A stretch of DNA of 64,000 nt from Acidobacteriota bacterium (GTDB lineage Bacteria > Acidobacteriota > UBA6911), in assembly GCA_963664705.1 (NCBI GenBank), contig OY761556.1, positions 4,768,001 to 4,832,000 of the forward strand, written 5' to 3'. Below are positions 41,408 through 58,641 of this stretch, piece by piece. Below the pieces are notes generated by a model that was not told the origin of the DNA, did not search any database, and worked only from the letters and a program-made list of their open reading frames with translations. Both the position numbers and the translations under genes were made by a program. Every line of letters begins with the position of its first letter. The first letter of the stretch is position 1.

Positions 41408-41426
41408 TCTCTCTTTCTCTTCCCAC

Positions 41427-41493
41427 GAAAACAACGAAGACCGCGGAAAACACAGATATGATCTCCGTGCCTTCCGCGGTCTTCCGTGTTTTC
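41427..41493. repeat. Intergenic inverted repeat sharing the GAAGACCGC core of the 24-kb repeat
   Basis: GAAAACAACGAAGACCGCGGAA ... TTCCGCGGTCTTCCGTGTTTTC. Confidence 0.7.
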
Positions 41494-41498
41494 AGCGG

Positions 41499-41723
41499 CT
41501 ACCCACCCTCTAAAAAGGGATAGAGCTTGATGGAGTCGCCGTCTTTAATGACGCTGTTCAGCGGAGCCCATGCATCATTGATGAGCAGCATGCCGACATC
41601 GTCATCGGTAAGCCCGAGTCTGGCTTCAAGCTGCGCCAGGCTGAGAGACTCACCGATATCCAGCGTGTCATGCCTTTTGCCCATCCGCTCTACCAGATTC
41701 AACCCGAACTCAATTTCAATCAT
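41499..41723 (-). CDS. MoaD/ThiS-family sulfur carrier
   Basis: 74 aa, beta-grasp size, ends IKDGDSIKLYPFLEGG with the C-terminal GG. Confidence 0.9.
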   Translation of the reverse strand: MIEIEFGLNLVERMGKRHDTLDIGESLSLAQLEARLGLTDDDVGMLLINDAWAPLNSVIKDGDSIKLYPFLEGG

Positions 41724-41741
41724 ACCGTTCCCTTGGGCCTT

Positions 41742-43457: not shown

Positions 43458-43633
43458 ACACCTATGTCTCCTACTTTATTATTCCGGCATCCAAAGATCT
43501 ATCAGCCTGCCTACGGTGACTATGCGCAGACCAAGCAGTCAGACGATCGCCCGTCAGTACGGGTCAACCATCCACACACTTATAATCGTAATAAATAGAT
43601 TTTCAGCTGAGTTTAATTTTCGGGTGCCATCCT

Positions 43634-44356
43634 CTAAGCCATTGTTCCGCATACGGGACAGTCCGGTCTGCGACCGATCCCGAGCGGCGAAAAAGTCCAT
43701 TCAGAACCATTGAAAAGCAGCATTTTTCCTGCCGGTCCTGTTCGTCCCAGCAGATTCTCGACTACCGCCAAAGCCTCCATGGAACCGATAATACCGGCCA
43801 TGGGGCCAAGAGACACTGTTACATGCCCGCCGGTCCGTCTGTTTTCAAACCAGCACGAGAGGCAGGGCGTCTGGCGCGGGGCCACCGTCGTCACATAGCC
43901 GCTCCATCCATCGATCCCGCCATCCACGAGCGGCTTGCCCTGCGCAACACACAAGCGATTGGCCAGCAGACGCGTTTCCCGATTGTCCAGCGCCAGCGCC
44001 ACAAGATCGCTTCCGGCTACCATCGACGGGCCGTTCTGCTCCGTAAACCTCGCCGTTACAGGCGTCACCCGAACCGTGCCGTTCAGCGCCCGCAGGCACT
44101 CCGCCGCCCGTTCAGCCTTCCAGTAGCCTAAATCCGCTTCCGTATAGAGGATCTGACGATTCAGGTTGCTTTCCGATACCCTGTCATCGTCCACAACCGT
44201 GAGGTTTCCTACACCGGCCGCAACCAGATAATATAGCAGCGGAGAACCCAGACCTCCAGCGCCGAGCACGAGTACACGAGCACACGAGAGCTTCTTCTGA
44301 CCTTCTTCGCCAAACAGCGCCGCCTGCCGCGCATAGCGCTCGTTCGTCTCGCTCAT
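43634..44356 (-). CDS. moeB: HesA/MoeB/ThiF family adenylyltransferase
   Basis: ERYARQ, GAGGLGS, DDDRVSESNLNRQ, PCLSC and C-terminal CPVC Zn motif; no rhodanese domain. Confidence 0.88.
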   Translation of the reverse strand: MSETNERYARQAALFGEEGQKKLSCARVLVLGAGGLGSPLLYYLVAAGVGNLTVVDDDRVSESNLNRQILYTEADLGYWKAERAAECLRALNGTVRVTPVTARFTEQNGPSMVAGSDLVALALDNRETRLLANRLCVAQGKPLVDGGIDGWSGYVTTVAPRQTPCLSCWFENRRTGGHVTVSLGPMAGIIGSMEALAVVENLLGRTGPAGKMLLFNGSEWTFSPLGIGRRPDCPVCGTMA

Positions 44357-44553
44357 ATTCTTTCATCCTTTTGGCGCGGGCGAAAGAAATTTCTGAAATT
44401 GAATTGCGTCGGCGCGATCAATCTTTTGGCTCGATCATCCTCCGTTACCCGCACAGCGGAAATGGTACCGCCATGTTCCTGAAGCGATACTCTCTCCGAT
44501 TATGATGATAGCCCCGGCATGCATTGATGTAAAATATTAAAAAGCTATGCAAC

Positions 44554-44570
44554 CATACGGTTTGTCTATG
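44554..44570. promoter_or_regulatory. Putative LysR-type T-N11-A binding box
   Basis: CATA-cggtttgtc-TATG palindrome just upstream of the lysR RBS in the divergent moeB/lysR region. Confidence 0.55.
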
Positions 44571-44586
44571 ATAGGAGGCACGGCCC

Positions 44587-45471
44587 ATGGAACTGCGTCA
44601 GATGGAATACTTTCAAAAGGCGGGACTGCTGCGGAGTATCACCAAGGCGGCGGGGGAGTTGCACGTCTCCCAGCCCTCAGTTACGGTGGCCATTCAAAAG
44701 CTCGAGGAGGAGCTTGGAGTGCCCCTCCTCGATCGGAGTCAGAAGCAGATTGCACTCACACCGGAAGGGCACGTGTGCCTGCGGCGAACGGACGACATTC
44801 TTGCACGCATACGCGATCTGGTCTCTGAGATGAATGATTACCGCTTCGCACAAAAGGGAATCATCAAAATCGGTATCACGCCGGTGATTGGAGCCTATTT
44901 CTTTCCTGCGGCTCTCGCGAGATTTCAGAAGACTCACCCCCGTGTGCAGGTTGCGGTTATTGAAGAAGGTTCTTTGTCGCTCCGAAAGAGACTCGCACGC
45001 GGCGAACTGGATCTCACGATGATGATTACCTCCAAGACGTCCTCCCATCTCGAAACTGTGCCGGTGGCCAAGGGGCAATTGCTTGCCTGCTTCTCGCGCC
45101 ACAATCCCCTGGGCAAACTGAACGAAATCCCCTTTTCCAAACTCCGGGATCAACCTTTCATTATGTTTCGCGAAGATACCTACAGCCGGAAGATGATCCT
45201 GGACGAATGCGCCCGGAACAAATTCACACCCCGGATTGTGTTTTCCTCAAGCCAAATCGAAACTGTCATGGGGATGGTCGGACATGGAGTGGGCATCTCG
45301 TTTCTGTTGGATACCATCGTCACCAAATATCCTGAAGTGATTGGAAGACCCCTGTCCAAACCGTTATTGCTCGAAGCTGGATTAGCCTGGAGCAAGGACC
45401 GATACCTTTCAAAAGCGGCCAAACTTCTTATGGATTCGTTTCTGGAAGCGCCCAAGGAAATCGAGCCTTAG
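44587..45471 (+). CDS. LysR family transcriptional regulator
   Basis: MELRQMEYF...SITKAAGELHVSQPSVTVAIQKLEEELG HTH plus substrate-binding domain; RBS AGGAGG. Confidence 0.95.
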   Translation: MELRQMEYFQKAGLLRSITKAAGELHVSQPSVTVAIQKLEEELGVPLLDRSQKQIALTPEGHVCLRRTDDILARIRDLVSEMNDYRFAQKGIIKIGITPVIGAYFFPAALARFQKTHPRVQVAVIEEGSLSLRKRLARGELDLTMMITSKTSSHLETVPVAKGQLLACFSRHNPLGKLNEIPFSKLRDQPFIMFREDTYSRKMILDECARNKFTPRIVFSSSQIETVMGMVGHGVGISFLLDTIVTKYPEVIGRPLSKPLLLEAGLAWSKDRYLSKAAKLLMDSFLEAPKEIEP

Positions 45472-45609: not shown

Positions 45610-46278
45610 ATGGTGAGCGGTATCGACAGCAACCTGGCATCAACAATGGCAAGCAGCCTGTTCTCCAAACTCGACACCAACAATCGAGGCTATCTTCAGA
45701 AATCCGATCTTGAATCTGCTTTCAGCTCCATCTCCAGCGATTCCGATTCAAGCAGTGCGGACGATGTTTTTGACACATTGGATATCAACAGCGATGGCAA
45801 GGTCACGCAGGACGAAATGGCCACAGCCTTGAAGAATATTCTCGGCAGCCAGCCCAATGGCGCCAGCATGCCGGAAGGAGGGCCTGGCGGACCGGGCGGC
45901 ACGCCTCCTCCACCACCACCGGAGGGATCGGACAAAGGATTTACGAAAGATGAATTGAGCACGCAGCTCGAGGAGATCGGCAGTTCCGACAGCAAGCGTT
46001 CTTCGTTGATCTCCAATATCGTGGAAAATTTCGATGAAGCGGATACGGATAAGGACGGCAAGGTGAGCATGCAGGAGGCCATGGCCTTTGATAAAGCTCA
46101 CCAGACATCATCATCCATATCCACCCAAGCCGCTTCGGATGGATCTACGTCCAGCACCGATAGCAAGAACAGCGAGGATCTTTTCATGAAGCAGATCATG
46201 AAATTACTGAGCGCCTATCAGGTAGCCCAAAGCGGGTCGAGCAGTTCTGATAGTTCCAGCCTCTCGATTTCGGCTTGA
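45610..46278 (+). CDS. Ser-rich EF-hand Ca-binding protein
   Basis: EF loops DTNNRGYLQKSD, DINSDGKVTQDE and DTDKDGKVSMQE; GGPGGPGGTPPPPPP linker; no Sec signal. Confidence 0.85.
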   Translation: MVSGIDSNLASTMASSLFSKLDTNNRGYLQKSDLESAFSSISSDSDSSSADDVFDTLDINSDGKVTQDEMATALKNILGSQPNGASMPEGGPGGPGGTPPPPPPEGSDKGFTKDELSTQLEEIGSSDSKRSSLISNIVENFDEADTDKDGKVSMQEAMAFDKAHQTSSSISTQAASDGSTSSTDSKNSEDLFMKQIMKLLSAYQVAQSGSSSSDSSSLSISA

Positions 46279-46516: not shown

Positions 46517-47353
46517 TCAGTATGCGGCGCTCCCGGTAGAAATGACGTCGCGCGTGTCTATCGTAAATCTCTTATAGCTCGAAAACTGGTGAACATTGCG
46601 CCAGTGCTGTCGTTCGGTAGCGATGTCCACCGTGGCTGATGACGGAAGCCATTCCGCACGCTCCTGAGCCGGGAACTTATGGGGGTCATACAGCACCTCC
46701 ATTTCCATGGATTTGAGGTTATGATCGCTGCGCGACGACTCCAGCCCGGCGATTATTCTGTGAATGGCGCCGGAATCCGGGTCAATCCAGGCGCTTCCTT
46801 TGATGTCCAGCGGATAATCTATTCCGCGCAACCGCAGCGCGGTAGTCGATTTTGTGCCGGCAATGTGCTTGAATTGAATCTTAGCCAGACGGTGACCGTC
46901 GGCTGTCTCATACCCCGCGATCTGATATTCGAAATCGCTCTGATAATAAGGATGAAATACGAGCAGGAGCGTGGGGATGCCATTGGTTATCAGCAGGGGG
47001 ATATTCTTGTCTTTATTCTTTTTCCCTTGCAGCAGCCTGGATTCCTCCACAGAGAAACCCTCATCATCCACGTTCAGCAAGACCAGGTAATCAAAAGTTG
47101 ATTTCTGGATATACTCAGGTTTCCCCTCTTTTCCCAGCTTGGCCTGGGTCACTTTCTCCACGCATGTCACGGATTTGAACTGTGTCCAGAATTCCCCGAC
47201 CGACCTTCTCGCCTGCCCGAGGATAACCTTCAGGCTTGGGCCGTCATCCGGAACGTCACTTTCCGCGGCCTTCGCTGAACTCCCGGCGATGCACAGGCAG
47301 AAACACAGAACCATTCTATGGATCCAATGGTGCATTGTCTTTGGCAGATTCAT
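46517..47353 (-). CDS. Secreted beta-rich hypothetical protein, last gene of the cytochrome operon
   Basis: RBS GGAGG before ATG 47353 (alternative GTG 47392 overlaps the upstream stop); signal peptide; KGSAWIDPDSGAIHRI, WLPSSATV and FSSYKRF, reminiscent of LolA/sigma-E-regulator-like periplasmic folds. Confidence 0.75.
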   Translation of the reverse strand: MNLPKTMHHWIHRMVLCFCLCIAGSSAKAAESDVPDDGPSLKVILGQARRSVGEFWTQFKSVTCVEKVTQAKLGKEGKPEYIQKSTFDYLVLLNVDDEGFSVEESRLLQGKKNKDKNIPLLITNGIPTLLLVFHPYYQSDFEYQIAGYETADGHRLAKIQFKHIAGTKSTTALRLRGIDYPLDIKGSAWIDPDSGAIHRIIAGLESSRSDHNLKSMEMEVLYDPHKFPAQERAEWLPSSATVDIATERQHWRNVHQFSSYKRFTIDTRDVISTGSAAY

Positions 47354-47388
47354 AAATGAACCTCCGGATCGGCAAAGTGTGGATCTAT

Positions 47389-49197
47389 TCACTGAAGTCC
47401 CTTTTCACGCCGCGGCCTCCGATTGTCGAAACGGTAGCCGATAGTCAGAAAGGATTGACGGTAATTCTCGGTGTTGCCGCGGTACACGGTCATTCCTGCG
47501 CCCAGATAATAGTGCGGCCCAAACATCCAGTTCAGATTCCCGGTGACAAAGCGGGAACGGCTTTGGCTGGTGAGGTTGGAAAATACATTTTGCTCGCCGA
47601 TCTGCACATCAAACTGAAGGTTCTCGCCGAGTTCTCGCGACACCATCAACGCCTGATAAGTCCCGCGACCGAAGGAGCTGTCGAACCGGGAATATCGCAC
47701 ATCCGCGCGAATCCCTGTGTGCAGGATATCGGCAGCGGTCACTCCGACCAGGTAATCCCAGGAAGGTCTTGCATCCCCTGATCGGCTGCTGCGGCCGACC
47801 GTTGAATAGAATCCGATTTTGCGAGGCAATTCCAGGTGGAATCCACCGCTCAACCCCTGGAAAAGATATTTATCCAGGAGCCCCGTGCTCAGAAGCCGCT
47901 CATCAAAAGTCGGAATATTTCGGAAGTAGTTCTCGCTGAGATCAAAGCTCAATATCTTCCAGGGTTGCAGCCGGATCGTGAGATAGCTTCGGCTGAGTGC
48001 CAGTCCGGATTGTGCCGGGCTCTGAACGGAATCTCCGGATGCGGTATTCCCCGTCGAGGCGTAGGAATTGTTGAGCAGGTCGTACTGCACATCACTGTAT
48101 ATGGAAAGATATCGTTTATAGAAGATTCCATTTTGAAAAAAGGCAAATTGGCGATCGGGACGCCAGTTGACGCGGGTCAGCGCAACTCCTCCGGTGGTGG
48201 TAAAGCGGAATGAGTCAAAGCTGCCCGCCTCATAATTCACAAATCCGCCGCCCATCTGACGGTGAGGATCGTAATCCCACGAGGTCGGATCCGGAGCTGA
48301 TCCACCGAAAATACCGATCGTTGCCTTGCCATAGCGTCGGCCCAGGTAAAAGCCATCCATGGTGTCCAGGCTGCTGGCCCACGGGACAAACAGCCGGCCA
48401 ACGCCGGCAACCCAGCGCGAATTGGGGTTATCATAGGAAAGGCTCAGATGGTAGGTTCTATTGACCAGGTCGACAAACGTGGGAGTCTGGGAAACACCTC
48501 CCGCTGTATGCCGATATCCGCGGTAATAGCCTCTGAGATTCCAGTAGCTTCCTCCCAGCCGCGTGGCATCGAGTTGAACCGAAAGTCCGGTCAGGGTAGA
48601 GGCCGTTGACCCGGGCTGCTGCAGATAACCAAAATCAAACCCGATCCGACCGCGAGTCCGGTTCACTTCGGGAGAAGGCGGCTTCGGCAAACTTTCCCGC
48701 ACCTCCTGATCCAGTGGATCCTCCTGTGTGAAGCTGATGACCTGCGGGTATCTCCCAACATTGGTCGCGGCCGGCTTTTGCTTGAGCTTTTCGATTTCCT
48801 CGGGCGGCACGCACGCAACGTCTCCGGGATTTATATTTCCGGATCCGGAAATTATCCTGGCTACCGCGGAAGAGGCGGTAACCGATTCAATTTCGATTTG
48901 TGCGACTTCGGTATCTGATGCCCCCCTGCGCCGTATTACAAGTTTCTGGCCCTGAACCAGTCCGGCATCACTTCCGCCTTCCAGGTATACAGCCTCGGCG
49001 GATACATATTTAACTCCATATTGCGAGCCGACTTTGACGTCGGCCAAACACAGAGAGTGAATCAGTGGAAACAGCAGAATCAATGCCGTCATCGCAGTCC
49101 GGATCCGAGCGGATCGCGGCCACAGAGTGCGAAAGCGCGACCGCTGTATTCGCCTACCGGCAGGCATTGGCGATATCGTCATCAAAGGAAGAAACAT
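47389..49197 (-). CDS. Probable outer-membrane beta-barrel protein with small N-terminal beta domain
   Basis: TGATG overlap with the cytochrome stop; signal-like MTALILLFPLIHSLCLA; VYLEGGSDAGLVQGQKL (FlgT-C-like); many alternating aromatic strands; terminal strand FLTIGYRF followed by a short tail. Confidence 0.75.
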   Translation of the reverse strand: MFLPLMTISPMPAGRRIQRSRFRTLWPRSARIRTAMTALILLFPLIHSLCLADVKVGSQYGVKYVSAEAVYLEGGSDAGLVQGQKLVIRRRGASDTEVAQIEIESVTASSAVARIISGSGNINPGDVACVPPEEIEKLKQKPAATNVGRYPQVISFTQEDPLDQEVRESLPKPPSPEVNRTRGRIGFDFGYLQQPGSTASTLTGLSVQLDATRLGGSYWNLRGYYRGYRHTAGGVSQTPTFVDLVNRTYHLSLSYDNPNSRWVAGVGRLFVPWASSLDTMDGFYLGRRYGKATIGIFGGSAPDPTSWDYDPHRQMGGGFVNYEAGSFDSFRFTTTGGVALTRVNWRPDRQFAFFQNGIFYKRYLSIYSDVQYDLLNNSYASTGNTASGDSVQSPAQSGLALSRSYLTIRLQPWKILSFDLSENYFRNIPTFDERLLSTGLLDKYLFQGLSGGFHLELPRKIGFYSTVGRSSRSGDARPSWDYLVGVTAADILHTGIRADVRYSRFDSSFGRGTYQALMVSRELGENLQFDVQIGEQNVFSNLTSQSRSRFVTGNLNWMFGPHYYLGAGMTVYRGNTENYRQSFLTIGYRFDNRRPRREKGLQ

Positions 49198-52100
49198 CAA
49201 TTCCCCCCTGAGCGATGGCATTGATAGCAGTTGGCGCTGTTGTACACGTAGCCGCTCCTTCCTGCATGCTTGGAATCGGTCTGCGCTTTGGTGTGGCAAG
49301 ACGTGCAGGTGAAAACAGAATAGTTTGATGGATTTGTATGACAGTCACTGCACGTTTTGGCATTGCCGTGACTCGTTTTCCACCATGTGTGATTAAAGGT
49401 CGCTCCCGCCCACGAGGTCGTGCTGTGACAGGTGGCACAAGTGGTTGGGAAGCCGGCGGACTGATGGCCCGGATTCGTTGTCGTCTTGTACTCGGAGGAA
49501 TGGCACGCATAACAGTCGGTCGGCGTTCCGGCGTACTTGCCGCTGATATGACATTGATTGCATTGCACACTGGTATGTGCCCCGCTCAGCGGAAATGGCG
49601 TCGTGCCGTGATTAAAGGTTGCACCGGCCCAGGAAGTCGTACTGTGGCATGTGGCGCACTGCTGCGGGAACCCCGCAGACGCATGGTTCGGATTCGTCGT
49701 ACCATTGTAGTTATTCAGGTGGCACGAGACGCAGTTGGTTGCCAGCCCGGCATAGACTCCGTTCTTATGGCAGGAGGTACACGTAACACTGACGTGAGCC
49801 CCAGTCAGCGGAAACGCCGTCTTCGTATGGCTGAAAGCCGCTCCCGTGAAGCTTGTGGTGGAATGGCAGAGCGAGCAGTCCTGCGGATACCCCGACTGTG
49901 CATGATTCGGGCTCGTCGTACCGTTGTAGTTGCTCAGGTGGCACGAGGCACAGGCCGTCGGAAGCCCGGCGTAGACATTGTTTTTGTGGCAAGTGGCGCA
50001 CTGCACAGCCGTGTGGGCACCGGTGAGCGGAAATGGCGTCGTCGCATGATTGAAAGTCGCGCTGGCCCACGATTTCGTGTCGTGGCAGCTCGAACATTGC
50101 TGCGGAAATCCCGCCTGTGAATGATTAGGATTTGCCGTCCCACTGTAATCATTCAGATGGCACGACACGCAAGCCGTCGGAAGCCCGGCGTAGACGTTGT
50201 TCTTGTGACATGTCGCGCACTGTACAGCCGTGTGGGCGCCGGTCAGCGGAAATGGCGTTGTTGCATGATTGAAAGTCGCTCCGGCCCAGGCCGCCGTATT
50301 GTGGCAGGTCGTGCACTGCTGCGGAAACCCGCCCTGCGTATGGCTGGGGCTTGTGGTGCCGTTGTAGTCATTCAGATGGCAGGATACACAGGCCGTGGCA
50401 AGGCCGGCATAAACATTGTTTTTGTGACACGTCGCGCAGGGCACGCCTGTGTGCCCACCGCTCAATGGGAAGGCTGTTGCGGCGTGGTTGAAGGTTGCAC
50501 CCGCCCAGGTGGTCGTACCGTGACAGGCTGAGCACTGCTGCGAGAACCCGGCAGATCCGTGGTTCGGATTCATCGTACCCTTGTAGTTATTCAAGTGGCA
50601 GGACACGCAGTCCGTGGCAAGGCCCGCATAGACATTATTTTTATGGCATGTGGCGCATGGGACATTCGTATGCGCGCCGGTCAATGGGAACTTCGTCTGC
50701 GTGTTGTGATTGATCGAAACACCGCCCTGCCAGGAGGAGGTGCTGTGGCACTGACTGCAGTTCTGTGGATAGCCGGCAGCCGCATGGTTCGGATTCGTCG
50801 TACCCTTGTAGTTATTCAGGTGGCAGGACGCACAGTCGGTGGCAAGGCCTGCATAAACATTGTTTTTGTGGCACGTGGCGCACTGCACGCCTGTGTGCGC
50901 GCCGGTCAACGGAAACTTCGTCTGCGTACTGTGATTGATCGAAACGCCGCCCTGCCAGGAAGAGGTGCCGTGGCACTGGCTGCAATTCTGCGGGAACCCG
51001 GCCGCGGCATGATTCGGATTACTTGTACTCTTGTAGTTATTCAGGTGACACGATGCGCAGTCCATGGCAAGGCCCGCATAGACATTGTTTTGGTGGCACG
51101 CGGTGCATTGCGTATTTGCATGAGCGCCGCTTAGCGGGAATGCCGTTGTGCTGTGGCTGAAAGCCGCGCCCGCCCAGGACGTTGCACTATGGCAGCTGGT
51201 GCACTGCTGTGGAAAGCCGGCTGCTGCATGGTTCGGCTTTGCCGCACTCTTATAATCCGCCAGATGGCAGGACACGCAGGAGGTTGACAGGCCCGCATAG
51301 GCGTTGTTTTGGTGACACGAAGCGCATTGTACGCCGACATGGGCGCCGCTCAGCGGGAACTGCGTGGAAGCGCTGTGATTGAAAACAGCGCCGGCCCAGC
51401 CCGCGGGCGTGTGGCAGCTTACACAGTTACCGGAGAACCCCGCAGCCGCATGATTCGGGTTGTTCGTCGCTGAGTAATCCTTGGCATGGCAACTGATGCA
51501 GTCCGGCGAGGTGCCTGAAAACTTGCGGTTCGCGTGACAGGAGGTGCATTCGAGCTGGCCATGCCCGCCCGTCAGGACGAAGCCGGCGTAGCGGCCATGG
51601 TCGAACTTGTTACCCATCCAGCTGTCCATGCCGGCATGACACGACAGGCAGTCGGAGGGGAATTGGGCCGCGACATGATCCGGGGACTTCGCTGCTTTAA
51701 AATCGCCCGTGTGGCAGGACGCACAATCGGTGCTCAATCCCTTGAATTGCCCGACGGCGGCGCTTTTGTGACACGATATACAATCCGATGCAGCATGGGC
51801 ACCCATGAGCGGAAAACGATTCGTATGGTTTTTTGCGCTTGTCAGCGTCACACGCCAACCTCGGACGGAGTGACACTGCTCGCAATTGCTCCCCATCTGG
51901 CGGCGGTGAAAATCGGCGTGGCAATCCGCGCACTGCCGGCCCACATTGCTGAACACAAGCTTGGAGTGACACTGTCTGCAGCCTACACCGGTGTGCATCC
52001 CGCGCAATGGATAAGGTGTTTCCGAATGTTTGAAGTCGGGGAAAGGCCTGATCGGCTTGTAGCTCGTAGAGGCATGGCAGTTCGCGCATGGAATTGTAAT

Positions 52101-52448
52101 CGCCCCGTGCGGGCTGCCTTTCATGCCGGCTTTCGCATCCGCCTTCGCGGATGCAGCGCCGCCGGACTGGTGCATGGAGTGACATCCGGCGCAGGCACCG
52201 TTTTCAACGTTTCCCCCCAACGAAGGGTGCTTCCCGCTCTTCTGATCTTCCCGGATGCCGTCATGACAGCCGAGACACCGGAATTCAGGCTTCCCTTTTG
52301 AAAGATCGTGACAATCCGCGCAATGCTCCGAACCGCCAAGCATTTCGTGCCTGGCGGCAAGAGCGCCGGCAGATGTCTGCGCCGCATACCCCGTCGCGGC
52401 GCAAAACAGTACCCACACCAAGCCGAACTTTTTCACTGACAGTCGCAT
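49197..52448 (-). CDS. Giant multiheme cytochrome c with 43 CxxCH motifs and 12 tandem ~73-aa tri-heme repeats
   Basis: Sec signal; manual count of 43 CxxCH (4 N-terminal + 12x3 + 3 C-terminal); repeat consensus FNH..T.FPL.GAH..V.CxxCH.NNVYAGL.T.CxSCH...Y.....PNH...GFPQ.CxxCH...W. Confidence 0.95.
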   Translation of the reverse strand: MRLSVKKFGLVWVLFCAATGYAAQTSAGALAARHEMLGGSEHCADCHDLSKGKPEFRCLGCHDGIREDQKSGKHPSLGGNVENGACAGCHSMHQSGGAASAKADAKAGMKGSPHGAITIPCANCHASTSYKPIRPFPDFKHSETPYPLRGMHTGVGCRQCHSKLVFSNVGRQCADCHADFHRRQMGSNCEQCHSVRGWRVTLTSAKNHTNRFPLMGAHAASDCISCHKSAAVGQFKGLSTDCASCHTGDFKAAKSPDHVAAQFPSDCLSCHAGMDSWMGNKFDHGRYAGFVLTGGHGQLECTSCHANRKFSGTSPDCISCHAKDYSATNNPNHAAAGFSGNCVSCHTPAGWAGAVFNHSASTQFPLSGAHVGVQCASCHQNNAYAGLSTSCVSCHLADYKSAAKPNHAAAGFPQQCTSCHSATSWAGAAFSHSTTAFPLSGAHANTQCTACHQNNVYAGLAMDCASCHLNNYKSTSNPNHAAAGFPQNCSQCHGTSSWQGGVSINHSTQTKFPLTGAHTGVQCATCHKNNVYAGLATDCASCHLNNYKGTTNPNHAAAGYPQNCSQCHSTSSWQGGVSINHNTQTKFPLTGAHTNVPCATCHKNNVYAGLATDCVSCHLNNYKGTMNPNHGSAGFSQQCSACHGTTTWAGATFNHAATAFPLSGGHTGVPCATCHKNNVYAGLATACVSCHLNDYNGTTSPSHTQGGFPQQCTTCHNTAAWAGATFNHATTPFPLTGAHTAVQCATCHKNNVYAGLPTACVSCHLNDYSGTANPNHSQAGFPQQCSSCHDTKSWASATFNHATTPFPLTGAHTAVQCATCHKNNVYAGLPTACASCHLSNYNGTTSPNHAQSGYPQDCSLCHSTTSFTGAAFSHTKTAFPLTGAHVSVTCTSCHKNGVYAGLATNCVSCHLNNYNGTTNPNHASAGFPQQCATCHSTTSWAGATFNHGTTPFPLSGAHTSVQCNQCHISGKYAGTPTDCYACHSSEYKTTTNPGHQSAGFPTTCATCHSTTSWAGATFNHTWWKTSHGNAKTCSDCHTNPSNYSVFTCTSCHTKAQTDSKHAGRSGYVYNSANCYQCHRSGGN

Positions 52449-52456
52449 CCGATATC

Positions 52457-53041
52457 CTATCGAGTGGTCACAAGAAGGCTCATCATCTGCCGGGCCTTTT
52501 GTGCGCTTTCTGAATTCGAGTGCTGGGCTGTCAGGCGCGTCCAGTAGTCTCTCGCGCGATTCCCGTCACCGATATTGGCGTAAATGGCGCCAAGGTTATA
52601 GAGAGCATCCTCATAGGCGGGCTGCGTCTTTAGTATTCCTTCCGTATGCCGGATCGCCCCGTGGATGTCTCCGAGCTGAAACAGCACTTTCCCAAGTTCA
52701 AGATTTGCCTCCGGATTCTCCGGCTCCATGTCGAGGATCCTGCGCAAATCCGCCGCCGCTTCCTGGGCATGTCCGCTTTCCGATTCAATTTTAGCGAGCC
52801 TGAGAAGCACCGGTAAATGCCCCGGCCTCTTCTTCAGCGCAGTTCTGAGCATCTCCTGCTCATGCGGATTCTTCTCCCTGGATCCATCTGCAAACGCAGG
52901 CGAACCCGTGCCGGAATGTCCGGACGGTTCTTCCTTCACCGACCTCTTCGCATGTGTCGCCAGGTAGAATCCCGCCGCAATTACCGCGATTCCCAAAATC
53001 ACTATCGCTACAGCTCGTCGAAGCTTCACAAGCCTCCCCAT
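52457..53041 (-). CDS. Membrane-anchored tetratricopeptide repeat protein
   Basis: N-terminal TM (AVAIVILGIAVIAAGFYL) and TPRs (PENPEANLELGKVLFQLGD, PAYEDALYNLGAIYANIGD); 8 bp upstream of the cytochrome; start 53041 or GTG 53029. Confidence 0.85.
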   Translation of the reverse strand: MGRLVKLRRAVAIVILGIAVIAAGFYLATHAKRSVKEEPSGHSGTGSPAFADGSREKNPHEQEMLRTALKKRPGHLPVLLRLAKIESESGHAQEAAADLRRILDMEPENPEANLELGKVLFQLGDIHGAIRHTEGILKTQPAYEDALYNLGAIYANIGDGNRARDYWTRLTAQHSNSESAQKARQMMSLLVTTR

Positions 53042-53409
53042 TCCGCAAAGCTGGCACTCTGCCCGCCGCATAATGCAAAAATATTTTCCCTTGGTTTCTG
53101 CGAACCGGGATTGCGGTTGCAATCCGCGTGCCATTGCTACCACATTGTGGCATTTCCGGCATCTTCCGCCTCAAACGAGGGGGCTGCCCGATGCCGCCAT
53201 GGATTTAGATAACATTTTTATTATGTGTGTTTTAGTTGATGTCCGGGCGCCGGGTTCTTGGCCATTCCAGGCTTATTGCGCATGCAGTCCTAATGTCCTC
53301 GGCGTTTGACACCGGATCGATGGCCGGCACCGGAACTAGCGGAGAATTTTCCAGGCATGGGGGAAGAACTCCCCGATTACGCCATATTGCTTACCCACGA
53401 GACCAGAAG

Positions 53410-53683: not shown

Positions 53684-54097
53684 GTGAGGGTGCGGATGCA
53701 AGGCTATTCCAATGACTCACATGATTCCAAATCTCAGGAATCTCTTCTCCTGGCGGCTGATTTCTTCCTTTTTCTTTCAGATTCTACTGTTCTGATGATC
53801 CTGAGCGCCATTCGCAGAAAGGAAATGACCTATCTGGAACTGGCCGGAGAACTTGGGATCCCTCCCCTGGTTGTTTTCACCAAGCTTCGGGCGATGGAAC
53901 GGGAGGGACTTCTTGTTTCGCACTTCCGCCCCAGGGGACTTTTCTTCCGCGTGGTGGATAACGAGGTTGCGCAGGCGCTTGAGCAGATACTGGCCATCCC
54001 GAAGAAACAGCTGCAGAGAGTTTACGATCGCAAGGCGGTTGCGGCGGGAACGAACGAAAACCGGCGGGAATCGCCGTTTCGAGACACTGCAAAATGA
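53684..54097 (+). CDS. ArsR-like winged-helix transcriptional regulator
   Basis: FLFLSDSTVLMILSAIRRKEMTYLELAGELGIPPLVVFTKLRAMEREGLLVS, a degenerate ArsR HTH; start uncertain. Confidence 0.7.
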   Translation: MRVRMQGYSNDSHDSKSQESLLLAADFFLFLSDSTVLMILSAIRRKEMTYLELAGELGIPPLVVFTKLRAMEREGLLVSHFRPRGLFFRVVDNEVAQALEQILAIPKKQLQRVYDRKAVAAGTNENRRESPFRDTAK

Positions 54098-54284
54098 GGA
54101 CAGAAACATGAACATTGCGGTCGGGATTTGCACGCGGCCTGCAAAATTTGCAGCAGATCCAACGACAGCCACCACAGGCTGAACTCCTAACTCAAACAGA
54201 GCGAATGAAATACGCCTCAACGAGCCATTGGGACCTCTCTTTGCCTGTCAAAAGGGTCTTCCTGACATTGCAGGAGAAGCAAAA

Positions 54285-55001
54285 ATGAAAAGATATCGAC
54301 GAACTCCATTGTTGGGATTGATGTTGCTGTTGGCAATTTCTGTCCAGGCTCAGGGAAGGCGGGCGAGAGGCCCTGCCAGGCAGGCGGATAGGCCGGCCCC
54401 TGCCGACGCCGCCCAATGTCTTGCCTTGGTCCAGTCCACTCCAAAACAGGCGCTGAACTCGATGGAGGCCGCCGGCCTCCTGTACATGCGGGAGGAAGAA
54501 AAGCTTGCGCACGATGTCACCCTGAAGTTGCAGGCAAAATGGGGGTCGCGTACATTCGGAAATATTACGCAAGCCGAGAACCGGCATATCGAAATGATCA
54601 AGCTGCTGTTGGATCGCTATCAACTGCAGGACATCGCTGCCCGAAACCCGGCCGGCACATTCCGCAATGAGGGGATCGCGGATTTGTACCATTCCTTTGT
54701 AGCGGAAGGCGAGCAGTCCTTGAAGGCCGCATGGAAAGTGGCGGCCGCAATCGAAGAGCTCGATATCCGCGACCTTGAAAAAGCCGCTCAGTCCACCGAC
54801 AATAGTGATCTGAAATTCGTTTACGATCATCTCCGAACCGCTTCGGAAAACCATATGCGCGTGTTTGTACAGCAGTTGAGCAGGGCGGGAGACTCCTATA
54901 TTCCGCAGCACATGAATCAAGGAGAATTCTCCCAGATCATCGCACGCGCCCAATCAGTTGGTCGCGGCAGCAAAAGGTCTTGCCCCTGGAATCAGCCCTG
55001 A
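54285..55001 (+). CDS. Secreted DUF2202 (ferritin-like) protein
   Basis: RBS AGGAG, signal peptide, YMREEEKLAHDV, FGNITQAENRH, IEELDIRDL, SENHMRVF. Confidence 0.88.
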   Translation: MKRYRRTPLLGLMLLLAISVQAQGRRARGPARQADRPAPADAAQCLALVQSTPKQALNSMEAAGLLYMREEEKLAHDVTLKLQAKWGSRTFGNITQAENRHIEMIKLLLDRYQLQDIAARNPAGTFRNEGIADLYHSFVAEGEQSLKAAWKVAAAIEELDIRDLEKAAQSTDNSDLKFVYDHLRTASENHMRVFVQQLSRAGDSYIPQHMNQGEFSQIIARAQSVGRGSKRSCPWNQP

Positions 55002-55031
55002 TACGCTATAACCACTTTTTACGGAATCACA

Positions 55032-56297
55032 ATGGCGGTCTCCTTGTCGAACCAGACTCGATTCCACCCGGCTCGCTGGATAGCTATTGCCGTGGTTGTT
55101 CTATGCATTGCGCTCCTCGCCAGTGCAGTCTTTAATTTCGTTACGCTATCGCGTCTGAGCAAATCCTATCTCTCGAATCGCGGCCATGAGATTGCCGCTG
55201 CGCTCGAAGGAATGGCACGCGGTCCCGGCAGGCGAAATAACCCGATATTCTGGCAATCAGTGCTGGAATCAAATTACACGCGCTACTCTGGTTCGGTAGC
55301 GTTTCTGTCCCTGGTGGATCAAAAAGGGAGCGTGCTCGCTTACAAAGGAAGCACAGCGGAGGTTCCGAGCGTCATCCCAACCACGCTGCGCGACGTGTAT
55401 ATCTTCAACCAGCCCCTTGCGTTGCCTCGTTTTGAGCATCAGGGAAATGGCGTTGTCAGCAGCTGGAGCATCCGCATCGGGCTTTACACAACCGAGACAG
55501 TCTCTATTCAAAGGCAGGCTCTTCTGCAGCTGGCAATAACCGGGATGACGGTTTTCACCCTGGTTCTCTTGGCCGTAAGTCTGATCCGCACGCTGAATCG
55601 CTTCCTTGAAATGAAGGCGCGGGAAGGAGCCGAAGCACAGCTCAAATCCCTGGGCATTATGTCGGCTTCGCTGGCCCATGAAATCAGAAACCCTCTGGGC
55701 GCCATGAAAGGGCTGACGCAACTGGCGCAGGAAGATCTGCCGGAAGATCATGCGGCGCAGGAAAAGTTGAAAACAGTCGTAAATGAAGCCGAGCGACTCG
55801 AACGATTGGTCAACGATCTGCTGGATTTTGCCCGTTCTAAAGAACCGAAAATCAGCAGTTTTGATCTTGTTGAACTTCTGACCGATATCAAGGCAATCCT
55901 CGGACCAAAGCTCGCTTCTTCGAAGGTAGACCTCCGGCTGACAAACAAAGGCGTACCCATGTTGGTTCGCTCGGATCCGGCGGGGCTAAGGCAAATACTG
56001 CTGAATGTATTGATCAACGCCATCGATGCCACATCCGAATCCCAAACCGTTGAATTGAAGGCATGCCTCTCCGAAGACGGAAAGACGATCCTGATCCAGG
56101 TTGATGATTCGGGAAAAGGGCTTGGCAAGGAAAACCCCGAAGAACTGTTTCTTCCTTTCGTAACCAAAAAGGTACGTGGGACAGGGTTGGGACTCGCAAT
56201 CTCGAGACAAATCGCCGAGAGCCTCGGCGGAACATTGACACTGGAGAGTTTGCCGGGAACCGGAGCCCGCTGTTCCATCACGTTACCCATTGTCTAA
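55032..56297 (+). CDS. Membrane sensor histidine kinase (ZraS/AtoS-like)
   Basis: Two TMs, SLAHEIRNPLGAMKG, LNVLINAIDA, FVTKKVRGTGLGL. Confidence 0.93.
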   Translation: MAVSLSNQTRFHPARWIAIAVVVLCIALLASAVFNFVTLSRLSKSYLSNRGHEIAAALEGMARGPGRRNNPIFWQSVLESNYTRYSGSVAFLSLVDQKGSVLAYKGSTAEVPSVIPTTLRDVYIFNQPLALPRFEHQGNGVVSSWSIRIGLYTTETVSIQRQALLQLAITGMTVFTLVLLAVSLIRTLNRFLEMKAREGAEAQLKSLGIMSASLAHEIRNPLGAMKGLTQLAQEDLPEDHAAQEKLKTVVNEAERLERLVNDLLDFARSKEPKISSFDLVELLTDIKAILGPKLASSKVDLRLTNKGVPMLVRSDPAGLRQILLNVLINAIDATSESQTVELKACLSEDGKTILIQVDDSGKGLGKENPEELFLPFVTKKVRGTGLGLAISRQIAESLGGTLTLESLPGTGARCSITLPIV

Positions 56298-56310
56298 AGC
56301 AGGCGGATTC

Positions 56311-57654
56311 ATGAAACTGAAGATACTTGTTGTCGACGATGAGGCGGGCCAACGACAGTTCATCAGCGGCGCTCTGGCTAAGGAGTACGATGTCACGGCC
56401 GCATCGAACGGCGTTGAAGCCTGCCAACTGCTGTCTCACTCCAGCTTCAGCCTCGTCATCACAGATGAGCGCATGCCGGACATGGGCGGGATAGAGCTGA
56501 TTCGATGGATGCGTGAAAACGCTCCGGAAACGCCGGTTATTGTACTCACGGCCTATGGCTCCGTGGAAACAGCCGTCGAAGCAATCAAGCTGGGCGCAGA
56601 AGAATACCTCACAAAGCCACTGAAGAGTCCGGAAGAGCTTCGGCTTATAGTCGGCAAAGTTTTGCGCAGCCGGGCAATGCGCGATCGCAGCCAGCTGCAT
56701 CAGGAGGAAACGGCCGCGGCTCTCCCGGCAGATGTTGTCGCTGAAAGCGAGAGCATGAAGCATGTCTTCCGGCTGGCAACGCAGGTGGCACAGCAGCCGA
56801 CCACAGTGCTCCTGACCGGAGAATCCGGAACAGGCAAGGAAGTGGTTGCCCGATTCATACACAGCCGAAGCCCGCGTTACGATCATACGTTTGTTGCGGT
56901 CAACTGCGCCGCCATCACCGAGACCTTGCTCGAATCGGAACTGTTCGGCCACGAAAAAGGCGCTTTTACCGGGGCGACACAAAACCGGCGCGGCCGGTTT
57001 GAATTGGCAGATGGCGGCACCCTGTTTCTGGACGAAATCGCTGAAATGGGTGTGGGCCTTCAGGCCAAATTGCTGCGCGTTCTCCAGGAACAGCAGTTCG
57101 AACGTATCGGCAGCGACCGGACCATGACGGTTGACGTCCGGGTCATTGCCGCAACAAATAAAGATCTAAACCTCAGCATTGCGGATAAATCCTTTCGAGA
57201 AGACCTCTATTACCGGTTAAACGTGTTTCCAATCCATATTCCCCCGCTGCGCGAGCGGCGGGACGATATTCTGCCACTGGCCAAATCCTTTGCTCAAAAA
57301 ATCTCGAGCCGTCTTGGCAGAGCGGCAGCCCCGATCAGCGCAGAAGCGTCAGAATTGATGAAGAGCTATGACTGGCCGGGAAATGTACGGGAATTGGCAA
57401 ATGCCATTGAGCGCGCCCTGATCGTCTCACGCACCGATTCTATCGAATCCGACGACTTGCCCGTGAAACGGGAACCGGCATCAACCGCGCAATCCTCACG
57501 CCCTGGTTTACTGGCCCAGGTTGAAAGAACCTCAATCCTGGATGTACTGGCCCGGAACAAAGGAGACCGGCGCGCGACGGCGGAGGAATTGGGCATCAGT
57601 CTGCGCACACTTCAATATCGCCTGAAAGAATACGGGATTACCGGGCGCGAATAG
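56311..57654 (+). CDS. Sigma54-dependent response regulator (REC-AAA+-Fis HTH; ZraR/AtoC-like)
   Basis: LVVDDE, GESGTGKE, ESELFGHEKGAFTGA, FLDEI, FREDLYYRLNV, WPGNVREL, C-terminal HTH. Confidence 0.96.
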   Translation: MKLKILVVDDEAGQRQFISGALAKEYDVTAASNGVEACQLLSHSSFSLVITDERMPDMGGIELIRWMRENAPETPVIVLTAYGSVETAVEAIKLGAEEYLTKPLKSPEELRLIVGKVLRSRAMRDRSQLHQEETAAALPADVVAESESMKHVFRLATQVAQQPTTVLLTGESGTGKEVVARFIHSRSPRYDHTFVAVNCAAITETLLESELFGHEKGAFTGATQNRRGRFELADGGTLFLDEIAEMGVGLQAKLLRVLQEQQFERIGSDRTMTVDVRVIAATNKDLNLSIADKSFREDLYYRLNVFPIHIPPLRERRDDILPLAKSFAQKISSRLGRAAAPISAEASELMKSYDWPGNVRELANAIERALIVSRTDSIESDDLPVKREPASTAQSSRPGLLAQVERTSILDVLARNKGDRRATAEELGISLRTLQYRLKEYGITGRE

Positions 57655-57809
57655 CTGGGAGCGCCGCCATCTCAACGCAATGCCGCATCCGATTTGTCGA
57701 GGGCGAAGCCCTTCGGAAGCCGGTGGCAAGCAGCCGCACTTCACGGTTTCCCATGCGGGCACGCCTTTTTGCAAATAATATGCGGGCATTAGTGTCGCGG
57801 CACTCCCAG
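57655..57809. repeat. REP-like element with terminal inverted repeats between convergent genes
   Basis: CTGGGAGCGCCGC ... GCGGCACTCCCAG. Confidence 0.6.
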
Positions 57810-57821
57810 TAGGACTCGATT

Positions 57822-58415
57822 TTATTGAATGCCAAGCAACTCCAAATGACTTTCGAAGGCATCCAGGTGCCTAATGGATCCGGCAAGCAAGTTCGTATAT
57901 ACAGCTTTGATGTCCGTATTGTCGGTTAACGCTATCGCAGCCTCCAGGTCTTTTATATCCTTCTTTTCGATGGCAACCCCCACCTGCAAAGCGTCAAAAA
58001 GCGATAATTGCCCCTGGGCAATCAGTTCGTTATATAACGCCTGCAGATCCTGATTAACAAAAACGCCGGGTTCCTTTGCCGGATCCGCCAAGCCATACCG
58101 CTCCAGGAGATTTCCAATGGCATCAAAATGTTTCTGCTCGCTTGCCGCAATGTTGGCATAAATGCGGACACCCCATTTTGCATAAAGGACCTGGTACACT
58201 TCCAGCGCAAGTTTTTCCTCTTCTCGCATAAACAAAAGCGACGCCAGTTCTTCGTTGCTCAACGATTGAGCAGTAATCGGGACCGATGCTTTCTGTCCGT
58301 TGGCGCCAGATCCGGGCCCTCCTCCCTTCTGATTGCTGTAACCATTCTGCGCCGCTGCCGGCAGGGCAGTCATAAAAGCCAGGCAAAGCACAAGCAGTAA
58401 GCTGGATAGTTTCAT
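57822..58415 (-). CDS. Second secreted DUF2202 (ferritin-like) protein
   Basis: Signal peptide, FMREEEKLALEVY, YANIAASEQKH, IEKKDIKDL, GSIRHLDAF; RBS GGAAG. Confidence 0.88.
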   Translation of the reverse strand: MKLSSLLLVLCLAFMTALPAAAQNGYSNQKGGGPGSGANGQKASVPITAQSLSNEELASLLFMREEEKLALEVYQVLYAKWGVRIYANIAASEQKHFDAIGNLLERYGLADPAKEPGVFVNQDLQALYNELIAQGQLSLFDALQVGVAIEKKDIKDLEAAIALTDNTDIKAVYTNLLAGSIRHLDAFESHLELLGIQ

Positions 58416-58480
58416 GTTTATATCTTCCTTTCCGTGCTGGTCTGTTTGAATTCCGAATTTACATACACGCAACGGATCTC

Positions 58481-58496
58481 TGCAATTCTCTGCCCA
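58481..58496 (-). promoter_or_regulatory. Putative sigma54 promoter of the second DUF2202 gene
   Basis: Minus-strand TGGGCAGAGAATTGCA (GG-N10-GC with TTGCA), about 65 bp upstream of the ATG. Confidence 0.55.
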
Positions 58497-58641
58497 AGAA
58501 CATGGAAGGAAGTTACTCATGTTAATCCAATGGTTTGCAGCCTACTGCACCCGTAAAGAATGCGAAAAAGAGCAGAATTTGCGGCAGAGCCTGGAAATTT
58601 TTGCATCGCGGAAACTGCATCCACGGCGGCTCGAGATATGC

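What the first reader, a model, noticed from the sequence alone, without database searches (positions are those of the whole stretch)
49400..52040. Single-chain heme wire made of 12 tandem tri-heme modules with signs of recent expansion
Seen: each ~73-aa (~219-bp) repeat has three CxxCH and three extra conserved His (FNH, GAH, PNH), enough for bis-His ligation of every heme. Adjacent repeats come in near-identical pairs (WQGGVSINH.TQTKFPLTGAH twice; FNHATTPFPLTGAHTAVQCATCHKNNVYAGLPTAC twice). The repeats are rich in Ala/Thr/Asn/Ser/Gly and very poor in acidic residues. Known: Geobacter c7-type polymers such as GSU1996 are elongated chains of tri-heme domains. Inference: this is a wire or capacitor tens of nm long whose length can change by unequal recombination, possibly exceeding the periplasm width.
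Basis: partly seen in the sequence, partly recalled or inferred. Interest (0 to 1): 0.8.

Follow-up and report, generated by a model that had tools for sequence, protein, structure and literature searches.

The report
Fused 43-heme wire beside porin
This gene encodes one protein with 43 heme-binding sites in repeated three-heme units, next to a predicted outer-membrane barrel; it is a fused, stripped-down variant of a known but untested electron-conduit family (PCC3) and likely carries electrons across the cell envelope.

Summary
ORF 49197-52448(-) encodes 1083 aa with 43 CxxCH, 44 spare His and twelve three-heme modules. It is not an assembly artefact. It sits in a coupled operon: TPR protein, cytochrome, predicted 22-strand barrel, unknown protein. 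Relatives show the PCC3 porin-cytochrome layout of He et al. 2017: a fixed 20/23-heme cytochrome A, a variable cytochrome B, the barrel and a di-heme membrane protein. This scan has met that family at least nine times on other DNA. B changes length in steps of three hemes (3n+1 in 21/22, 56/62 and 20/20; 12-85 hemes), which supports the accordion idea. Here the expansion is not recent (longest exact DNA repeat 24 nt), and c7 membership fails on His order. What sets this locus apart: A's three-heme N-cap is fused to a whole B, and A's body and the membrane protein are missing. The fusion occurs in 3 of 51 genomes of the order. It implies that B's head lies on the periplasmic side, against the published model. 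Likely a single chain crosses the barrel with its repeat arm outside; this is untested.

The parts
52457..53143 (-). TPR protein, 228 aa, with an N-terminal hydrophobic segment; first gene of the operon; possibly a maturation or assembly helper (inferred)
   Evidence: Pfam TPR hits; PF23914 TPR_CcmH_CycH 28.2 bits, below its cut-off of 42. Upstream of the fused gene in L046, L061, L062, L063
49197..52448 (-). 43-heme c-type cytochrome, 1083 aa: N-cap of cytochrome A fused to a complete cytochrome B (3 + 1 + 12x3 + 3 hemes)
52380..52448 (-). Likely Sec signal peptide (residues 1-23); no conserved lipobox
   Evidence: Read from the sequence; fused orthologs lack Cys16. No signal-peptide predictor was run
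52113..52379 (-). Three-heme N-cap homologous to the N-terminus of cytochrome A, plus a linker of about 20 aa without hemes
   Evidence: 48% identity over 73 aa, E 3e-17, to the 26-heme A of the paralogous cluster; in unfused genomes the two query halves hit separate genes
52035..52112 (-). One-heme head of cytochrome B
   Evidence: Conserved at the start of B proteins
51384..52034 (-). Modules 1-3: conserved by position, more charged; likely the barrel-docking part (inferred)
   Evidence: Group by position across genomes; 8-13 charged residues each
50055..51383 (-). Modules 4-9: lineage-specific, interchangeable, nearly uncharged Thr/Asn/Ser-rich units (the accordion part)
   Evidence: Group by lineage; no clear positional match to the 43-heme ortholog L063; 2-4 charged residues each
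49398..50054 (-). Modules 10-12: conserved by position
   Evidence: Best DNA match on the diagonal against L063, 73-75% (module 11 tied with one other)
49200..49397 (-). Three-heme C-terminal cap with the same His/Cys order as a module
47389..49197 (-). Predicted outer-membrane beta-barrel of 22 strands without a plug, with an N-terminal FlgT-C-like domain. An in-frame ATG overlaps the cytochrome's stop codon (602 aa); the database entry starts at 49092 (567 aa)
   Evidence: AlphaFold2 pLDDT 78.9; barrel matches Z 12-17, N-domain matches 8z5n at Z 11.5, rmsd 1.7; start overlap read
46517..47392 (-). Conserved protein of unknown function with a signal-peptide-like N-terminus (ORF 291 aa); start overlaps the barrel's stop
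   Evidence: In 19 of 32 barrel loci; no Pfam or PDB match

Best explanation
The gene encodes a 43-heme cytochrome, a fusion of the three-heme N-cap of cytochrome A with a whole cytochrome B of a PCC3-type cluster, which likely forms a continuous bis-His heme wire that docks with its conserved head in the predicted 22-strand barrel encoded next door and would extend its uncharged repeat arm beyond the outer membrane. Shown: motif counts, the fusion, operon coupling, B-barrel linkage and length change in three-heme steps. Predicted: barrel fold and a well-ordered repeating module. Inferred: Sec export, heme attachment in the periplasm by the genome's CcmF/E or CcsA-type lyases, electron entry at the A-cap from periplasmic carriers rather than from the PCC3 membrane protein, passage of the chain through the barrel, and a reach of about 34-43 nm if straight. 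Gain and loss of inner modules, probably by unequal recombination, sets the reach and the number of electrons stored. The direction of electron flow is unknown.
For: One spare His per heme in a fixed order. A B-type cytochrome lies directly upstream of the barrel in 31 of 33 related loci; one has a remnant and one is cut by a contig end. A is absent from the fetched stretch in five loci with upstream DNA (L018, L019, L024, L036, L037), so B and the barrel are the core. Barrel model: 22 strands, no plug. Relatives carry a ~300-aa membrane protein with two WX3HX13H motifs and SGXXG, as defined for PCC3 (PMC5566968). PCC3's porin-adjacent cytochrome was predicted extracellular, repeat-built and Thr/Ser/Ala/Gly-rich, and its models are long and mostly linear (PMC10734462). 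B varies from 12 to 85 hemes while A is nearly fixed: 23 in 14 of 19; 23 or 20 in 32 of 34. Charge falls from 25% in A to 2-4 residues per module in modules 4-12. The fusion is intact in G000, G005, G007, P0241, P0242 and L060-L063, with 25, 28 and 43 hemes where complete. A heme-free 20-aa linker cannot carry electrons across the membrane, so B's head should be on the periplasmic side or in the pore (inference).
Against: No PCC3 system has been tested (10.1101/2025.02.27.639646). The protein has an ordinary-looking signal peptide and no lipid anchor, and no route is known that threads a heme-loaded chain of this length through a 22-strand pore. The fusion fixes only where B's head lies; it fits an all-periplasmic chain equally well. 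Low charge is not shared by all members (Asp+Glu up to 17%). The predicted extracellular PCC3 cytochrome Slit_1448 was not detected in ES-1 proteomes (PMC11429942). Heme distances and overall shape were not measured; the model lacks hemes and has pTM 0.52. Sequence homology to the proteobacterial PCC3 reference proteins was not tested directly.
Confidence: 0.47

Rival explanations
1. The whole chain stays in the periplasm. Its C-terminal cap plugs into the barrel from inside, as MtrA does in MtrB, and the long array lies along the membrane as a wire and electron store.
For: Signal peptide without lipobox. The C-cap and last module are as conserved by position as the head. GSU1996 and GSU2210 are periplasmic monomeric wires proposed as capacitors (PMC10138318). 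No export step is needed.
Against: 85 hemes, or 76 plus a 23-heme partner, would be several times the ~17 nm periplasm cited in PMC11492766. B, not A, is the one free to vary and depleted of charge. PCC3 authors predicted B extracellular.
Confidence: 0.28
2. The barrel is a dedicated secretion pore. B passes through completely and acts as a released or loosely surface-bound redox protein, not as a fixed conduit.
For: The barrel has no plug, and its top Foldseek hits are the FimD and PapC ushers. An unknown protein follows it in 19 of 32 loci and could be an assembly factor.
Against: The usher matches have TM-scores of only 0.3-0.4 and reflect barrel size; the wider search ranks other 22- and 18-strand barrels first. 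Most clusters include an inner-membrane di-heme protein (17 of 32 loci), which suits a continuous path.
Confidence: 0.12
3. The locus is a reduced satellite that has lost its electron source and serves only as a heme or redox buffer, or depends on the complete paralogous cluster elsewhere in the genome.
For: A's body, the membrane protein and the flavoprotein are missing here, and a full cluster lies at C1:2500032-2509318.
Against: All four frames are intact and all 43 motifs and their His are kept. The membrane protein was not found in 7 of 7 same-genus genomes that carry the barrel (71-98% complete), while the query found it in G000, G034 and G446. So the reduced form persists without a full copy in the genomes searched, at about 69% DNA identity.
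Confidence: 0.1

Closest known systems
PCC3 porin-cytochrome cluster (He et al. 2017, PMC5566968; Hoover et al. 2023, PMC10734462)
   Same: Order of constant cytochrome, variable cytochrome, porin. About 25 aa per heme. Repeat-built, Thr/Ser/Ala/Gly-rich second cytochrome (PCC3 median 34 hemes, up to 85). 22-strand porin, as predicted for Leptothrix cholodnii. Relatives and this genome's paralogous cluster have the membrane protein with two WX3HX13H motifs and SGXXG.
   Different: Here A is reduced to a three-heme cap fused to B, the membrane protein is absent from the locus, and a TPR gene and an unknown gene are added. The host group is Acidobacteriota by the labels of homologs. Searches for PCC3 with Acidobacteriota or Acidobacteria found no paper. 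Homology to the reference sequences was not tested.
Burkholderiales 24- and 49-heme porin-cytochrome clusters (Arbour et al. 2020, PMC7399161)
   Same: [quoted passage not shown]
GSU1996 / c7-type three-heme polymers of Geobacter (PDB 3OV0; PMC10138318)
   Same: Single chain of three-heme units. Pfam PF14522 passes its cut-off (172.8 bits against 24.8), best in a shifted frame. Weak profile match to 3OV0 (E 1.6e-4).
   Different: GSU1996 domains have an H-x2-H pair before the first heme and one His-Met heme. These modules have three spaced His and no conserved Met, and the gene is tied to a porin.
MtrAB (Shewanella) as a working model
   Same: A cytochrome of about 25 aa per heme paired with an outer-membrane barrel gene.
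   Different: TIGR03508 51 bits against a cut-off of 192; the barrel has no Pfam or NCBIfam family hit; 43 hemes rather than 10.
EET1/EET2 clusters of peat Acidobacteriota (bioRxiv 10.64898/2026.05.27.727921)
   Same: Porin plus multiheme cytochrome clusters in the same phylum, reported as transcribed in situ.
   Different: Their representative cytochromes have 8-13 hemes; PCC3 is not mentioned in the main text. Overlap cannot be excluded because the supplements were not available.

Membership tests
PCC3 | Outer-membrane beta-barrel porin gene in the cluster | tested here: met
   Model with 22 strands, pLDDT 78.9; structural matches are outer-membrane barrels
PCC3 | Large repeat-built, Thr/Ser/Ala/Gly-rich cytochrome next to the porin, 22-39 aa per heme | tested here: met
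   43 hemes, 25.2 aa per heme, 53% Ala/Thr/Asn/Ser/Gly in the array
PCC3 | Separate periplasmic cytochrome of about 21-27 hemes | tested here: not met
   At this locus only its three-heme N-cap remains, fused to B. Present in the paralogous cluster (26 hemes) and in most relatives
PCC3 | Inner-membrane protein of about 300 aa with two WX3HX13H motifs and SGXXG in the cluster | tested here: not met
   Absent from window 38000-62000 and not found in 7 of 7 same-genus barrel-bearing genomes. Met in the paralogous cluster and in 17 of 32 loci, so the wider family fits PCC3 and this locus is a reduced derivative
PCC3 | Sequence homology to the reference proteins (Sideroxydans ES-1, Leptothrix SP-6) | not testable with these tools
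   Supplements held no sequences as text; no named proteobacterial genome was reached
PCC3 | Extracellular location of the second cytochrome | not testable with these tools
   Only indirect: composition, length freedom and the signal peptide
c7-type polymer (GSU1996) | Tandem three-heme units in one chain; PF14522 above cut-off | tested here: met
c7-type polymer (GSU1996) | H-x2-H ligand pair before the first heme of each domain | tested here: not met
   Seen in the 3OV0 sequence; absent from all 12 modules, whose order is His, His, heme, heme, His, heme with 10-11 residues between the first two His
c7-type polymer (GSU1996) | One His-Met heme per domain | tested here: not met
   No conserved Met in the modules; three spare His each; GSU1996 feature from PMC10138318
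c7-type polymer (GSU1996) | c7 fold and heme core | tested here: inconclusive
   Fold searches with a heme-free model listed no cytochrome of this family; a missing match does not exclude it
MtrA/DmsE decaheme | Ten hemes; TIGR03508 above cut-off | tested here: not met
   43 hemes; 51.2 bits against 192.2

The most novel reading that the evidence does not exclude
Cytochrome B is a single-chain nanowire that is matured in the periplasm and threaded through its own 22-strand pore, head inside and tail outside. Its reach (about 10-85 nm) is tuned in three-heme steps by recombination. The A-cap/B fusion here is the natural proof of that topology and the smallest self-contained version: one wire, one pore, two helpers, no membrane reductase. 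This would be a kind of bacterial nanowire different from polymerised OmcS/OmcZ filaments and from MtrCAB.
Probability: 0.3. Interest if true: 0.8.

Novelty: new variant of a known kind. Interest (0 to 1): 0.42.

Why it matters
The giant repeat-built cytochrome itself is ordinary for the PCC3-type family, which is in print since 2017 and untested. The value of this locus is as a constraint. The published picture puts A in the periplasm and porin and B wholly outside. A conserved fusion of A's first three hemes to B's head, and loci with B and barrel alone, point to B as the barrel's partner with its head inside. That turns an open question (where the 20-85-heme chain lies and how it gets there) into a direct test. 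The 3n+1 rule gives natural short forms (12-19 hemes) for expression. A cultured bacterium, Emticicia oligotrophica DSM 17448, carries a complete cluster on a plasmid. If the chain crosses the membrane, uncultured Acidobacteriota would have a length-tunable route for electron exchange with solids or other cells.

Tried and rejected
Assembly artefact: rejected. Contigs of runs X2 and X3 (one sample, possibly the source) span all 6701 bases without a difference, listed pieces from a second study match exactly, and the gene has no exact repeat above 24 nt. Run X6 laid nothing, which is no test. No RNA holder was listed. Complex prediction for a natural short B (12 hemes) with its barrel from L019: no answer, score 0.12 against a mark of 0.32, controls not folded; it counts neither way. 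Fold searches of the cytochrome model (residues 724-1083): no Foldseek match at E 0.001 in PDB, none at Z 2 among 48,161 chains, none in the viral library; inconclusive for a heme-free model. Single-sequence PDB search gave only a reaction-centre cytochrome at E 1e-4. Alignment A3 misplaced the C-caps and was dropped. The genome-contig scan gave only 3 loci. Promoter and terminator scans were at chance level. The unknown fourth protein had no Pfam or PDB match. A weak membrane-protein hit on a Methylophaga plasmid (E 8e-4) lies in a different cluster without an annotated porin or giant cytochrome. The module tree is the quick version, 73 columns, with many open forks. PMC12977616 had nothing on repeat-number change in the passages read. 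'Poor in acid residues' as a family trait: rejected.

Full report
Observation. The finding lies in ORF 49197-52448 on the minus strand, 1083 aa. It has 43 CxxCH motifs, 44 other His and one other Cys; 2000 shuffles give at most 5 motifs. Four more hemes precede the array and three follow it. The array is 53% Ala/Thr/Asn/Ser/Gly and 1.7% Asp+Glu. Both quoted repeated segments exist. Public contigs of one sample, possibly the source, span the whole 6.7 kb without a difference, and listed pieces from a second study match exactly.

How recent is the expansion? Not very, in this gene. The longest exact DNA repeat is 24 nt. The 35-residue identical pair differs at 12 of 105 bases, all synonymous. 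Neighbouring modules reach 80% protein and 78% DNA identity at best. A 43-heme ortholog (L063, 69% DNA identity over the locus; its start is the same as the G005 gene, so the two count once) matches modules 1-3 and 10-12 by position but not clearly 4-9. A quick tree of 135 modules from 11 loci agrees: end modules group by position and inner ones by lineage (few columns, many open forks). So inner modules were replaced after that split and have since drifted. Some relatives show fresher turnover, with exact repeats up to 125 nt.

The module is the unit of change. Among 22 complete cytochromes from the window and fetched loci, 21 have 3n+1 hemes when CX3CH is counted; the range is 12-85. Among 120 short homologs, 62 had both ends and 56 of these were 3n+1; none was 3n+2. 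Among 75 metagenome loci, all 20 complete B genes were 3n+1. These sets overlap somewhat and include kin, so they are not independent counts. Syntenic loci L014 and L017 are 89-93% identical in DNA yet carry 61 and 46 hemes. Unequal recombination is the likely cause (inference).

Surroundings. The gene is second in a tight four-gene run: TPR protein (52457-53143), cytochrome, ORF 47389-49197, ORF 46517-47392, with overlapping stop and start codons at the last two junctions. The third product has no Pfam or NCBIfam hit but 1909 homologs among 8000 candidates scored. Its model (pLDDT 78.9) shows a small N-terminal domain and 22 long strands without a plug. It matches outer-membrane barrels, and the small domain matches a chain of the flagellar LPHT ring at Z 11.5, which I read as the FlgT C-terminal domain (recalled). 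Named homologs are Acidobacteriota. The barrel was found in 9 of 61 relatives and 34 of 401 genomes of the phylum, both counts including G000. I fetched 11 loci from the first search, 20 of the best places of the second, and used 2.

The family. In those 33 loci a B-type cytochrome lies directly upstream of the barrel in 31; one has a remnant and one is cut by a contig end. Seven break at a contig end inside B and three have B split by frameshifts. Most also have an upstream cytochrome A: 23 hemes in 14 of 19, and 23 or 20 in 32 of 34 metagenome cases. Seventeen of 32 loci have a ~300-aa membrane protein, mostly with two WX3HX13H motifs and SGXXG, and 16 a 4Fe-4S/FAD oxidoreductase. He et al. 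2017 define PCC3 by a porin, a periplasmic and an extracellular cytochrome (medians 21 and 34 hemes, up to 85; repeat-built, Thr/Ser/Ala/Gly-rich) and a membrane protein with these same motifs (PMC5566968; passages; two supplements gave legends only). Hoover et al. report long, mostly linear models (PMC10734462; passages). Arbour et al. saw the larger cytochrome vary by domain insertion or deletion (PMC7399161; passages and one section). PCC3 function is untested (10.1101/2025.02.27.639646; passages). A complete cluster with 23 and 40 hemes lies on a plasmid of Emticicia oligotrophica DSM 17448. This scan has reported the family at least nine times on other DNA. I reached the PCC3 reading before those look-ups, and they are not independent support.

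What is different here. Residues 24-93 match the N-terminus of cytochrome A of this genome's second cluster (48% over 73 aa, E 3e-17) and are joined by about 20 heme-free residues to the head of a whole B: 3 + 40 hemes. The fused form occurs in 3 of 51 genomes of the order; in the others with a match, the two halves hit separate genes or only one half was found. It also occurs in P0241 (25 hemes), P0242 (28) and 4 of 75 metagenome loci, complete ones with 28 and 43 hemes in the same four-gene layout. The membrane protein was not found in 7 of 7 same-genus genomes that carry the barrel (71-98% complete), while the same query found it in G000, G034 and G446. Five further loci have B and barrel without A in the fetched stretch. 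I found no paper naming PCC3 with Acidobacteriota or Acidobacteria or Emticicia with multiheme cytochromes, and none of the scan summaries shown mentions this fusion. A 2026 preprint describes porin-cytochrome clusters in peat Acidobacteriota with 8-13-heme representatives (10.64898/2026.05.27.727921; parts 1-4 of 8 and passages); its supplements were not available and may bear on overlap.

Mechanism. Shown: counts, fusion, linkage, three-heme steps. Predicted: a regular, confident module (pLDDT 81.4, pTM 0.52 for four modules plus cap) and the barrel. Inferred: Sec export; heme attachment by the CcmF/CcmE or CcsA-like proteins seen by motif in the genome; bis-His ligation of all hemes; a length of 34-43 nm if straight, scaled at 0.8-1.0 nm per heme from MtrA (about 10 nm) and GSU1996 (12 nm for 12 hemes; the 0.8 figure is my recollection), against a periplasm of about 17 nm (PMC11492766; passages). 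The published model has A in the periplasm and porin and B outside. It cannot hold for the fused form, because the only link across the membrane would be a heme-free linker. B's head must therefore be inside or in the pore. Either the chain passes through and its uncharged arm is outside (0.47), or it all stays inside with the C-cap in the pore (0.28). I favour the first because B, not A, is free in length, and charge drops from 25% in A to 2-4 residues per module after module 3. Against it: there is no lipid anchor or known export route, acid content varies from 2.9 to 17.3% in the family, and the ES-1 equivalent was not detected in proteomes (PMC11429942; passages).

c7 comparison. PF14522 passes its cut-off, best in a shifted frame, and a module profile finds 3OV0 at E 1.6e-4, so a distant link is possible. 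But GSU1996 has an H-x2-H pair and one His-Met heme per domain (PMC10138318, passages), and these modules have neither. It works like GSU1996 in principle and is not filed as a member.

Verdict. A real 43-heme cytochrome of a large, published but untested PCC3-type family. The locus fails two PCC3 defining features and is best called a reduced, fused variant. Interest 0.42: the giant repeat protein is ordinary for the family; the fusion gives a testable constraint on its topology.

Noticed in passing
G000 C1:2500032-2509318 (L022:5033-14319): Complete paralogous cluster in the same genome: A (26 hemes), B (28), barrel (52% identical), unknown protein, di-heme membrane protein, 4Fe-4S/FAD oxidoreductase.
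   Followed up: yes
G000 C1:1653814-1672012: Eight multiheme cytochrome ORFs (4-16 CxxCH) within 18 kb; the genome has 34 ORFs with three or more motifs.
   Followed up: no
L058:263-12847 (NC_018749.1): Complete cluster with its own ccsA gene on a 100-kb plasmid of cultured Emticicia oligotrophica DSM 17448; a practical test organism.
   Followed up: partly
L020, L021, L012, L008, L030, L038, L041 (contig ends); L025, L034, L035: Seven of 33 related loci break at a contig end inside cytochrome B and three show B split by frameshifts, so published heme counts for this family are probably too low.
   Followed up: partly
L036:11859-14414, L040:11693-14458, L042:5470-7776, L018:3269-4651: Members with 13-17% Asp+Glu, against about 3% in others; may follow habitat salinity or pH (untested).
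   Followed up: no
L014:6407-7531, L015:7451-8575, L017:11291-12421: A shortened cytochrome A of 13 hemes in clusters that also lack the membrane protein: a possible intermediate towards the fused form.
   Followed up: partly
   Followed up: partly
window 53684-58520: ArsR-like regulator divergent from the operon, then two DUF2202 genes flanking a sensor kinase and a sigma-54-type response regulator (latter labels from sequence, recalled).
   Followed up: no
window 40286-45471: Radical SAM/SPASM gene, aldehyde:ferredoxin oxidoreductase, a ThiF/MoeB-like gene and a LysR-like regulator (last two labels recalled).
   Followed up: no
window 45610-46278: Ser/Asp-rich EF-hand protein with a proline run, convergent with the operon.
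   Followed up: no
window 18903-40033: Several large PAS/GAF hybrid sensor kinases and a KaiC-like ATPase at 22331-24028 (labels recalled from sequence).
   Followed up: no
L059:10073-13427 (NZ_CP095734.1): Weak homolog of the membrane protein on a Methylophaga plasmid, between a 2Fe-2S protein and a cytochrome c, near a ccm operon; no porin annotated.
   Followed up: partly
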